Origin: Promethearchaeota archaeon
Lineage (GTDB): Archaea > Asgardarchaeota > Lokiarchaeia > Sigyniarchaeales > SOKP01
Length of the DNA: 64,000 nt
Assembly: GCA_030599585.1 (NCBI GenBank)
Contig: JAUVNS010000005.1
Coordinates: forward strand, 64,001-128,000
Reading direction: 5' to 3'
Shown: piece after piece, positions 57,849 to 58,363 of the stretch
Numbering within the stretch: position 1 is the stretch's first letter
Layout: every line of letters starts with the position of its first letter
Notes under the pieces: model-generated
Seen by the model: only the letters and a program-made list of their open reading frames with translations
Told to the model about the DNA's origin: nothing
Databases searched by the model: none
Position numbers and translations under genes: made by a program

Positions 57849-57910
57849 CTTAGAGTTAATCTACTCTTAATATATCTTATAATGTATACTTTAAAAACAT
57901 TATTTATAAG

Positions 57911-57922
57911 AAAATAACAAAA
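57911..57922 (-). terminator. Oligo-T terminator-like tract downstream of the 5S precursor
   Basis: Minus strand TTTTGTTATTTT immediately after the outer stem. Confidence 0.45.
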
Positions 57923-58126
57923 TCAGTGATAATCATTAACCACATTTACGATTCCGGGTTCGGATGGTACCGGGTACTATCCTGAATTACCATGACCGTA
58001 GCCGAAGCTACAGTTTGCAAGTTCCCATAGATTTTCAACTACAGTACTATCTGCAACGCAAAACAGTTTAACTTCCGGCGTTGTAGCTAATTGCTACGAG
58101 ATTATGTGGTTAAAACTATCACTAAC
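57922..58126 (-). other. Precursor processing stem and BHB-like motif enclosing the permuted 5S
   Basis: 58126-58104 pairs with 57945-57922 (~23 bp, one bulged U); ACG-CCGG-AAG pairs with CCGG-AAU-CGU. Confidence 0.8.
57952..58072 (-). rRNA. rrf: 5S rRNA gene, circularly permuted (3' half - UUCG - 5' half)
   Basis: 58072-58007 GUUAA-helix II', helix V, AGUA/GAA loop E, helix IV, helix I 3' strand; UUCG 58006-58003; 58002-57952 helix I 5' strand, helix II, helix III with CCGAAC; 121 nt total. Confidence 0.85.
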
Positions 58127-58146: not shown

Positions 58147-58363
58147 TATATTATCGTAAAATGCTTCATTTATATGGTTGTAAGTAATAGGAATAGTACA
58201 AGCTAGTAATTAAACTTTTTCATAATAAATCGTTAAACTTAAAAGACTATATATTGAATTGTTAGTTTTCTACATATCCCTTAAGATTTTTTTTATATGT
58301 ACTCATCTTATAAATAATTAAAAATAAGCATATGATTAAAAAGCTAAAACTCAAATATTTATT

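What the first reader, a model, noticed from the sequence alone, without database searches (positions are those of the whole stretch)
57948..58081. Gene ends form a BHB-like splice motif whose ligation exactly restores 5S as a 121-nt circle
Seen: CCGGAA occurs at both ends (58078-58073 and 57957-57952). Left ACG-CCGG-AAG-UU pairs with right AAC-CCGG-AAU-CGU, giving outer helix ACG/CGU, 4-bp central helix CCGG/CCGG, and bulges AAU and AAG. The inner side is relaxed (GUU/AAC pairing or an open loop). Established: the archaeal splicing endonuclease EndA cuts after the second bulge nucleotide and RtcB ligates. Inference: cuts at AA^G (58073/58072) and AA^U (57952/57951) release 121 nt, which circularise to ...CCGAACCCGGAA|GUUAA..., the canonical 5S sequence with no base added or lost. 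This precise fit suggests a functional pathway producing an end-less circular 5S rRNA using the tRNA-splicing machinery.
Basis: partly seen in the sequence, partly recalled or inferred. Interest (0 to 1): 0.93.

Follow-up and report, generated by a model that had tools for sequence, protein, structure and literature searches.

The report
Back-to-front 5S rRNA gene, splice-closed
This Asgard (Lokiarchaeia) archaeon encodes its only 5S ribosomal RNA with the back part before the front part, and the flanks form a conserved tRNA-intron-type cut-and-join signal that would rebuild a normal 5S sequence as a 121-nt ring; no such archaeal 5S gene turned up in the papers searched.

Summary
Window 58072-57952 (- strand) is a circularly permuted 5S rRNA gene: 3' part, UUCG cap on helix I, then 5' part. 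Its flanks form ACG/CGU + CCGG/CCGG with bulges AAG and AAU, in the strand geometry of an archaeal bulge-helix-bulge (BHB) motif.

It is the only 5S-like locus in a 100%-complete genome. The layout occurs in 118/131 sampled genomes of the family and in many other Asgard families.

- **Covariation:** the BHB covaries, for example CUGG/CCAG and GCG/CGC.
- **Breakpoints:** relatives have at least five different breakpoints. In each, cutting after the second bulge base restores the canonical 5S sequence exactly.
- **Enzymes:** the genome has two EndA paralogs and one RtcB.
- **Introns:** relatives carry BHB introns inside the same gene.

Weak points:
- No RNA data could be obtained.
- The inner helix is absent.
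- In this genome the BHB fold lies 2.5 kcal/mol above the predicted optimum.
- Whether the ring is the mature form is inferred only.

The mechanism is of a known kind (the permuted, circular SRP RNA of Thermoproteus). 5S would be a new member. This scan has already noted the same thing in at least 41 other genomes. No paper describing it was found.

The parts
58168..58176 (-). Putative archaeal TATA-like box (CATATAAAT) of a stand-alone 5S transcription unit
   Evidence: Inference only. The block ACCATATAAg..AAGCATTT is conserved upstream in relatives. No promoter tool for archaea was available.
58104..58126 (-). Leader strand of the long processing stem
   Evidence: Pairs with 57945-57922 in the MFE and the centroid (z = -5.3). 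UUAACCACA/UGUGGUUAA is conserved in relatives.
58083..58097 (-). Leader hairpin GUAGC-AAUUA-GCUAC, a look-alike of 5S helix I
   Evidence: Predicted in the MFE. Function unknown.
58079..58081 (-). Outer BHB helix h, 5' strand (ACG)
   Evidence: Pairs with CGU 57950-57948. Covaries as GC/AU/UA/CG.
58075..58078 (-). Central 4-bp BHB helix, leader strand (CCGG)
   Evidence: Pairs with 57957-57954. Relatives have CUGG/CCAG, CUGG/UCAG and CUGG/CCGG.
58072..58074 (-). Bulge 1 (AAG); predicted cut between 58073 and 58072
   Evidence: Sequence. AAG in 30/30 type-A flank combinations.
57952..58072 (-). Circularly permuted 5S rRNA, 121 nt: 3' part 58072-58007, UUCG cap 58006-58003, 5' part 58002-57952
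   Evidence: Two sub-threshold partial RF00001 hits. After rotation it folds as a three-helix 5S and aligns with canonical 5S. Permuted-core model R1 scores 105 bits. 16 of 28 core pairs are compensatory.
57954..57957 (-). Central BHB helix, 3' strand (CCGG); also the 3' strand of native 5S helix III
   Evidence: This strand covaries both with the leader and with the internal helix III strand.
57951..57953 (-). Bulge 2 (AAU); predicted cut between 57952 and 57951
   Evidence: Sequence. AAA, AAU or AAG in relatives.
57948..57950 (-). Outer BHB helix h, 3' strand (CGU)
57922..57945 (-). Trailer strand of the long processing stem
57893..57897 (-). T-run (UUUUU), likely transcription stop
   Evidence: Inference. 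Similar T-runs follow the trailer in relatives.

Best explanation
The 5S rRNA gene is circularly permuted. It is transcribed on its own as a precursor of about 230-260 nt.

Leader and trailer pair in a long stem. The inner end of that stem is a relaxed bulge-helix-bulge motif: a 3-bp outer helix, a 4-bp CCGG/CCGG helix and two 3-nt bulges, with no inner helix.

The splicing endonuclease EndA cuts after the second base of each bulge. EndA here is probably a two-subunit, broad-specificity form. The cuts release 121 nt with 5'-OH and 2',3'-cyclic phosphate ends.

RtcB joins these ends. The join recreates the continuous strand ...CCGAACCCGGAA-GUUAAAC... of helix III, that is, a complete 5S sequence as a covalently closed ring. 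Helix I of the ring is capped by a UUCG tetraloop.

After ligation the 3' CCGG switches partner, from the leader to the internal CCGG, and forms native helix III.

Shown here:
- the gene order
- the motif
- its conservation and covariation
- exact restoration of 5S at five breakpoint types
- presence of the enzymes

Inferred: cleavage by EndA, ligation, and that the ring, not a re-opened form, sits in the ribosome (my odds for this last step are about 0.6).
For: 1. **Only 5S.** RF00001 finds no other hit in G000, which is 100% complete. The permuted-core model R1 finds exactly one.

2. **Real 5S after rotation.** The rotated sequence aligns without a gap at the junction with canonical 5S genes of family f2 and folds into the three-domain 5S shape. 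16 of 28 core pairs show compensatory changes.

3. **Distribution.**
   - 118/131 genomes of family f1.
   - f3 1/1 and f4 2/4.
   - Other orders: f5 2/2, f6 2/3, f7 1/2.
   - Other classes: f8 4/4, f13 3/5, f20 2/4, f26 2/3 and others.
   - Records are titled Promethearchaeota or Promethearchaeia, for example Loki_b31.

4. **BHB covariation.**
   - The seven pairs are 100% paired in 16 rows, with both-side changes at four pairs. The covariation score is 0.455, against 0.19 in shuffles and at most 0.14 in slid controls.
   - Anchored without any pairing filter, 64/66 loci have a full central helix and 61/66 have three or more outer pairs.
   - The leader reads CUGG where the 3' end reads CCAG. 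It is complementary, not identical, so it is not a duplication remnant.

5. **Five breakpoint types.** All obey the same cut rule and restore the canonical sequence. Outer helices reach up to 16 bp.

6. **Enzymes.**
   - One EndA paralog keeps the catalytic residues Y/H/K. It is closest to the crenarchaeal catalytic subunit 3p1z_B (E = 1.4e-33).
   - The second paralog has Ser at the catalytic His position.
   - There is one RtcB.

7. **Introns.** Relatives carry 29-31-nt BHB introns inside the same gene. Removing them gives the intron-less sequence of relatives exactly.

8. **Cap.** Helix I is capped by UNCG-type tetraloops (UUCG in 62/114), or in two genomes by a longer capped extension. This is what one expects of a permanent cap.

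9. **Precedent.** The permuted SRP RNA of Thermoproteus is cut at a BHB by the splicing endonuclease and works as a circle (PMC4731332).
Against: - No RNA evidence. Junction scans of metagenome contigs gave nothing informative.
- The inner helix h' is missing (U.C in 30/30), so this is not a strict hBHBh' motif.
- In this genome the predicted optimum pairs the leader CCGG with the internal CCGG. The BHB fold is 2.5 kcal/mol less stable and has about 2-3% ensemble probability. Only 11 of 53 relatives have the central helix in their MFE.
- The outer helix here is only 3 bp before a hairpin interrupts it.
- Papers state that archaeal 5S, unlike 16S and 23S, is not matured through BHB circularisation (PMC12918454; bioRxiv 10.64898/2026.03.23.713588).
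- A nick at this site, at the AA bulge of helix III, could be structurally tolerated, so ligation is not strictly required for folding.
Confidence: 0.8

Rival explanations
1. The ring is only an intermediate. After BHB cutting and ligation it is re-opened at or near the helix I cap, giving a conventional linear 5S with ends in helix I. Permuted tRNAs and circular pre-16S rRNA are matured this way.
For: [quoted passage not shown]
Against: - The link between the 3' and 5' parts is only a 4-nt UNCG-type tetraloop, with no spacer or recognisable processing signal.
- In two genomes the helix is lengthened and capped again.
- Circular mature forms exist for Thermoproteus SRP RNA and for 23S rRNA.
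Confidence: 0.13
2. The precursor is cut at the bulges but not ligated. The working 5S is a linear permuted molecule with a nick in helix III, comparable to the linear permuted mitochondrial 5S of brown algae.
For: - Permuted 5S that stays permuted exists in stramenopile mitochondria (PMC4267664).
- The type-A nick lies at the AA bulge, flanked by helix III pairs that could hold the ends together.
Against: - Five breakpoint types all give ends that abut exactly, without a gap or overlap. One break lies inside hairpin loop C. This is hard to explain without ligation.
- EndA products carry the ends that RtcB joins, and RtcB is present.
- Other BHB-excised archaeal RNAs are found as circles.
Confidence: 0.05
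3. The leader-trailer pairing is a generic processing stem cut by some other nuclease, and its likeness to a BHB is incidental.
For: - Canonical archaeal 5S is matured by other endonucleases.
- The inner helix is missing, and the BHB is not the MFE in this genome.
Against: - The 3-4-3 spacing is constant relative to the 5S junction across classes, although the break moves.
- The four central pairs and the adjoining pairs covary.
- BHB introns occur in the same gene in relatives.
Confidence: 0.02

Closest known systems
Permuted, circular SRP RNA of Thermoproteus tenax / T. uzoniensis (Plagens et al. 2015, eLife, PMC4731332)
   Same: A structured non-coding RNA gene is permuted. The new ends lie in a functionally important region. 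[quoted passage not shown] The circular RNA is the functional product.
   Different: - The RNA family differs: 5S rRNA, a ribosome component, not SRP RNA.
- The trait spans many families and classes of Asgard archaea, not a few species.
- There are several breakpoints and extra BHB introns.
- Circularisation is not yet shown here.
Circularly permuted tRNA genes (Cyanidioschyzon merolae, Soma et al. 2007; Thermofilum pendens, from my own knowledge)
   Same: The 3' half lies before the 5' half, a BHB forms at the ends, and a circular RNA restores continuity.
   Different: The tRNA circle is re-opened at the acceptor stem by end-processing enzymes. Here only a 4-nt tetraloop links the native 5S ends.
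Circular pre-16S/pre-23S rRNAs, circular mature 23S rRNA (PMC12918454) and permuted 23S of Pyrococcus/Thermococcus (PMC7758197; bioRxiv 10.64898/2026.03.23.713588)
   Same: A leader-trailer processing stem carries a BHB, EndA cuts, ligation follows, and a ring-shaped rRNA can sit in the ribosome.
   Different: Those genes are in normal order, and the ligation joins the native ends. Here the gene is permuted and the ligation repairs an internal strand. These papers state that 5S is not part of that pathway.
Permuted mitochondrial 5S rRNA of brown algae (Valach et al. 2014, PMC4267664)
   Same: A 5S whose helix I is closed as a hairpin and whose ends lie elsewhere.
   Different: It is organellar, the product stays linear and permuted with an open three-way junction, and it has no BHB and no ligation.
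Low-abundance circRNAs from canonical 5S genes in Sulfolobus, Halobacterium and Pyrococcus (Danan 2012, cited in PMC12558985)
   Same: Circular molecules that contain 5S sequence.
   Different: They come from normal-order genes, have no BHB and have variable ends. They are interpreted as degradation or side products.

Membership tests
5S rRNA (Rfam RF00001) | Score at or above the curated gathering threshold (38 bits) | tested here: not met
   In genomic order there are only two partial hits, 16.5 and 14.7 bits. The failure follows from the permutation. The rotated sequence could not be given to Infernal.
5S rRNA (Rfam RF00001) | Three-domain fold (helices I-V) with conserved loop C, loop E and loop A sequences | tested here: met
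   The rotated 117 nt fold as helix I, II-III and IV-V. They align with canonical 5S of family f2 with no gap at the junction. 16 of 28 core pairs are compensatory.
5S rRNA (Rfam RF00001) | It is the genome's 5S gene (no other copy) | tested here: met
   No other RF00001 or R1 hit in G000, which is 100% complete in 52 contigs.
Archaeal BHB splicing motif (hBHBh') | Two 3-nt bulges on opposite strands separated by a 4-bp helix | tested here: met
   CCGG/CCGG with AAG and AAU. The central helix is paired in 64/66 unselected type-A loci and covaries.
Archaeal BHB splicing motif (hBHBh') | Outer helix h of at least 2 bp | tested here: met
   ACG/CGU here; 3-16 bp in relatives, with compensatory changes.
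Archaeal BHB splicing motif (hBHBh') | Inner helix h' of at least 2 bp next to the bulges | tested here: not met
   The first inner position is U.C in 30/30 type-A and C.C in 9/9 type-B loci. It is therefore a relaxed motif, not a strict one.
Archaeal BHB splicing motif (hBHBh') | Cleaved by EndA after the second bulge nucleotide | not testable with these tools
   Only indirect support: this rule restores an exact 5S at five breakpoint types. Two EndA paralogs are present.
Permuted ncRNA genes matured as circles (Thermoproteus SRP RNA type) | Gene halves in swapped order, with the native ends joined in the DNA | tested here: met
   Order is 3' part, UUCG, 5' part.
Permuted ncRNA genes matured as circles (Thermoproteus SRP RNA type) | Junction-spanning RNA reads or RNase R resistance | not testable with these tools
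Metagenome-contig scans for the junction found no RNA-derived contig.

The most novel reading that the evidence does not exclude
Ribosomes of most Asgard lineages carry a covalently closed, end-less 5S rRNA as the mature form.

The permuted gene is ancient in the phylum. It may predate the split of its classes, and so may lie near the archaeal ancestor of eukaryotes.

Its breakpoint has moved repeatedly because the ring can be re-encoded from any point, through tandem duplication or retro-copying. BHB introns have invaded the same gene.

This would also explain why 5S genes were reported as undetectable in closed Asgard genomes.
Probability: 0.5. Interest if true: 0.92.

Novelty: new member of a known kind. 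Interest (0 to 1): 0.85.

Why it matters
- 5S rRNA is treated as a linear RNA whose gene standard tools find easily (PMC4267664); a ring-shaped 5S built by the tRNA-splicing machinery would add a new kind of mature ribosomal RNA.
- It occurs in the archaeal group closest to eukaryotes.
- It explains a practical puzzle. Standard models miss the gene (16.5 bits against a 38-bit threshold here). Authors of closed Heimdallarchaeum genomes wrote that 5S genes "could not be predicted" (PMC8813620), so genome-quality standards that ask for a 5S gene under-score these genomes.
- It gives a natural series of breakpoints for studying how EndA recognises relaxed motifs, how a ribosome assembles with a circular 5S, and how permuted genes arise.
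- It is directly testable in existing Asgard cultures or enrichments that carry the permuted gene, with divergent-primer RT-PCR.

Tried and rejected

2. **Junction scans of JGI metagenome contigs.**
   - A genus-specific 34-mer gave 0 hits.
   - A broader pattern gave 17 hits. Sixteen are DNA contigs with loop-C-break (type B) permuted genes, in which that stretch is contiguous. One is a normal-order 5S of another archaeon.
   - This is no RNA evidence either way.

3. **Rfam at gathering threshold.** No 5S in the window, only one tRNA-Pro.

4. **First automatic BHB finder.** With loose rules it gave about 70 chance candidates per AT-rich locus. I replaced it with anchoring on 5S motifs.

5. 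**Canonical 5S in congener G014 (51.9 bits).** It follows a bacterial-looking 23S end, so I read it as contamination and not as a second 5S.

6. **Leader CCGGAA as a leftover of a tandem duplication.** Rejected, because in the CUGG/CCAG species the leader is complementary to the 3' end, not identical.

7. **Pseudogene or assembly artefact.** Rejected on conservation in more than 100 genomes and compensatory changes.

8. **Literature.** Searches for permuted or circular 5S in archaea or Asgard found no report. The library lacks most subscription journals.

Full report
**What is in the window.** On the - strand, 58072-57952 reads GUUAAACUG...loop E...GGGAAC...CUGUAGC-UUCG-GCUACGGUCAUGG...ACCCGGUACCAUCCGAACCCGGAA. 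This is a 5S rRNA with its 3' part (58072-58007) before its 5' part (58002-57952). The two helix I strands are joined by a UUCG tetraloop (58006-58003).

Rfam sees only two sub-threshold pieces, 16.5 and 14.7 bits against a gathering score of 38. At gathering threshold the window shows only a tRNA-Pro.

Rotated to the normal start, the 117 nt align with canonical 5S genes of a sister family with no gap at the junction (CCGAACCCGGAA|GUUAAAC against CCGAACACUGAAGUUAAGG). They fold into the three-domain 5S shape.

The window's genome is 4.85 Mb in 52 contigs and 100% complete. It has no other 5S-like hit and exactly one match to a model of the permuted core.

| Element | Left (leader) side | Right (3') side |
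|---|---|---|
| Outer helix | ACG 58081-58079 | CGU 57950-57948 |
| Central helix | CCGG 58078-58075 | CCGG 57957-57954 |
| Bulge | AAG 58074-58072 | AAU 57953-57951 |

On each strand the order 5' to 3' is helix, 4-nt helix, 3-nt bulge, helix. That is the arrangement of the archaeal BHB at a tRNA intron after position 37, where the cut falls after the second bulge base (established knowledge).

Cuts at 58073/58072 and 57952/57951 give 121 nt.

Further out, leader 58126-58104 pairs with trailer 57945-57922 in a long stem. A hairpin (58097-58083) sits between that stem and the BHB (z = -5.3).

The inner helix is missing. The base next to bulge 1 faces C, so this is a relaxed motif.

**Relatives.** I built a covariance model of the part common to all permuted forms: helix II 3' strand, helices V and IV, capped helix I, helix II 5' strand. 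It rests on alignment A1, in which 16 of 28 pairs are compensatory.

| Group searched | Genomes with a match |
|---|---|
| Family f1 (12 genera) | 118/131 |
| f3 | 1/1 |
| f4 | 2/4 |
| f2 | none (one weak cross-hit to a normal gene) |
| Other orders: f5, f6, f7 | 2/2, 2/3, 1/2 |
| Other classes: f8, f13, f20, f26 | 4/4, 3/5, 2/4, 2/3 |
| f24, f9, f11, f18, f27 | present |
| f10, f12, f17 | 0/13, 0/26, 0/19 |

Family f2 has canonical 5S genes of 53-68 bits.

Public records with the family-type pattern are titled Promethearchaeota or Promethearchaeia (Asgard, Lokiarchaeia), for example Loki_b31 and Loki_b32.

**Covariation of the BHB.**
- On 16 intron-less type-A rows from seven genera, the four central and three adjoining outer pairs are 100% paired. 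These rows were preselected by my BHB filter. Changes on both sides occur at four pairs:
  - columns 10-145: GC 8, AU 7, UA 1
  - columns 11-144 and 12-143
  - columns 14-138: CG 9, UA 7
- The covariation score is 0.455, against 0.19 in shuffles. Slid partners give 12-44% pairing.
- Without any pairing filter, anchoring only on GUUAAAC and GAAC-NNNN-NA, 64 of 66 distinct type-A loci have all four central pairs and 61 have three or more outer pairs. Central helices are CCGG/CCGG 37, CUGG/CCAG 16, CUGG/UCAG 6 and CUGG/CCGG 5.
- The leader is complementary to the 3' end, not a copy of it, so it is not a duplication scar.
- The same 3' strand also covaries with the internal strand of native helix III. 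This implies a partner switch after ligation.

**Moving breakpoints.** This is the strongest argument.

| Group | Break | Central helix | Notes |
|---|---|---|---|
| f1, type A | GGAA\|GUUAAAC | CYGG/CCRG | the window's type |
| f1, some genera (including a congener) | loop C, GGUC\|CCAUCC | leader CYGG with the other helix III strand | type B |
| f5, f6 | GGAAG\|UUAAGC | UCCG/CGGA, GUCG/CGGC or GCCG/CGGC | |
| f8, f13, f20, f24, f26, f11 | GGA\|AGUUAAGC | CGUG/CACG | outer helices 8-15 bp |
| f3 | loop B, GGAA\|ACACCC | CCGA/UCGG | |

In every case the central helix sits in the register that makes "cut after the second bulge base" give ends that abut exactly in a canonical 5S. Ends that need not be joined would not be held to this precision, least of all inside a hairpin loop.

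**Machinery and introns.** The genome encodes one RtcB and two EndA-domain proteins of about 200 aa.
- One keeps the Tyr, His and Lys of the active site. It is closest to the catalytic subunit of the Aeropyrum heterotetramer (3p1z_B, E = 1.4e-33).
- The other has Ser where M. jannaschii EndA has the catalytic His.
- This suggests a two-subunit enzyme. According to PMC5829648 (abstract), that type cleaves non-canonical motifs, which would fit the missing inner helix. This point is inference.

In relatives the permuted gene also carries 29-31-nt inserts bounded by good BHBs, in helix IV, loop D and loop C. Removing them recreates the intron-less sequence of sister species to the base. So 5S precursors of this lineage look like regular EndA substrates.

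**Ring or not.** The link between the native 5S ends is a 4-nt UNCG-type loop across the phylum (UUCG in 62 of 114 family loci). In two genomes it is a longer helix that is capped again. There is no spacer of the kind that end-processing enzymes use on permuted tRNAs. I therefore favour a mature ring (about 0.6), with re-opening as the main rival.

**Weak points.**
- There is no RNA evidence.
- In this genome the predicted optimum (-73.9 kcal/mol) pairs the leader CCGG with the internal CCGG. The BHB conformer is -71.4 kcal/mol and has about 2-3% of the ensemble.
- Among 53 relatives, 11 have the central helix in the optimum, and the median penalty is 2.5 kcal/mol.
- The outer helix here is only 3 bp.

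**What is known.**
- I found no report of a permuted or BHB-flanked archaeal 5S.
- A 2026 paper states that 16S and 23S "but not 5S" are matured through circularisation (PMC12918454). A 2026 preprint notes that 5S lacks BHB motifs.
- Authors of closed Heimdallarchaeum genomes could not predict 5S genes (PMC8813620).
- The closest precedent is the permuted SRP RNA of Thermoproteus. It is cut by the splicing endonuclease and is functional as a circle (PMC4731332).
- Brown-algal mitochondrial 5S is permuted but stays linear (PMC4267664).
- Circles from normal-order 5S genes are rare, have ragged ends and are read as decay products (PMC12558985).

**Earlier notes of this scan.** The scan has flagged the same layout in at least 41 other genomes. 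Those notes agree with this report but are not independent evidence.

**Verdict.** The mechanism belongs to a known kind, with 5S rRNA as a new and very widespread member. RNA-level proof is the missing step.

Noticed in passing
L014:1488-1669 (G012), L090 (G082), L091 (G044), L068 (G102), L071 (G035), L057 (G124), L019/L020 (G008/G005), L079 (G072): Inserts of 29-31 nt lie inside the permuted 5S genes of relatives, in helix IV, loop D and loop C. Each is bounded by a BHB with a good inner helix, for example CUGC-AA^A-AGUGC..GCACU-GCAG-AA^U. Removing an insert gives the intron-less sequence of sister species exactly. I know of no report of introns in archaeal 5S genes.
   Followed up: partly
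L011 (G015, same genus), L064-L066, L093, L094, L097, L101, L081, L083; metagenome loci L221-L237: A second permutation type within the same family has its break in loop C (GGUC|CCAUCC). Its own BHB (leader CYGG-AA^C, end CCGG-UC^N) is also common in JGI metagenome contigs.
   Followed up: yes
L079 and L080 (G072, G053, genus g14): The tip of helix I carries an extra stretch of about 30 nt instead of the plain tetraloop. It looks like a helix extension capped again by UUCG, and no clear BHB was found. An expansion at this spot is possible only if the native 5S ends are never free.
   Followed up: partly
window 58083-58097 (-): The leader hairpin GUAGC-AAUUA-GCUAC repeats the sequence of 5S helix I (GUAGC/GCUAC). 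Relatives have an equivalent hairpin with other sequences. Its role is unknown.
   Followed up: no
G000:C24:165764-165988 and G000:C35:67256-67504 (L116, L117): There are two EndA paralogs of about 200 aa. One has the full active site. The other has Ser at the catalytic His position, which suggests a heterotetrameric, broad-specificity endonuclease in this Lokiarchaeon.
   Followed up: partly
L008 (G014:C263:6954-7076): The only canonical 5S hit in the genus follows a bacterial-looking 23S 3' end on a low-GC contig. It is probably contamination of that MAG.
   Followed up: partly
G026:C1:1399892-1400758 (L005, L028): A single-contig 4.4-Mb genome of sister family f2 has three tandem normal-order 5S genes about 375 nt apart. 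Tandem copies are the usual proposed route to permuted genes.
   Followed up: no
L183 (DATKTW010000142.1): One contig with the Lokiarchaeial permuted-5S pattern is filed under a 'Candidatus Nanopelagicaceae bacterium' MAG. This is probably a binning error.
   Followed up: no
window 57836 downward (-): A small hydrophobic ORF starts about 55 nt after the 5S terminator T-run (MPGKFAKALKTIGRKWF...). The same gene follows the 5S in other genera (L080, L085), so the synteny is conserved.
   Followed up: no
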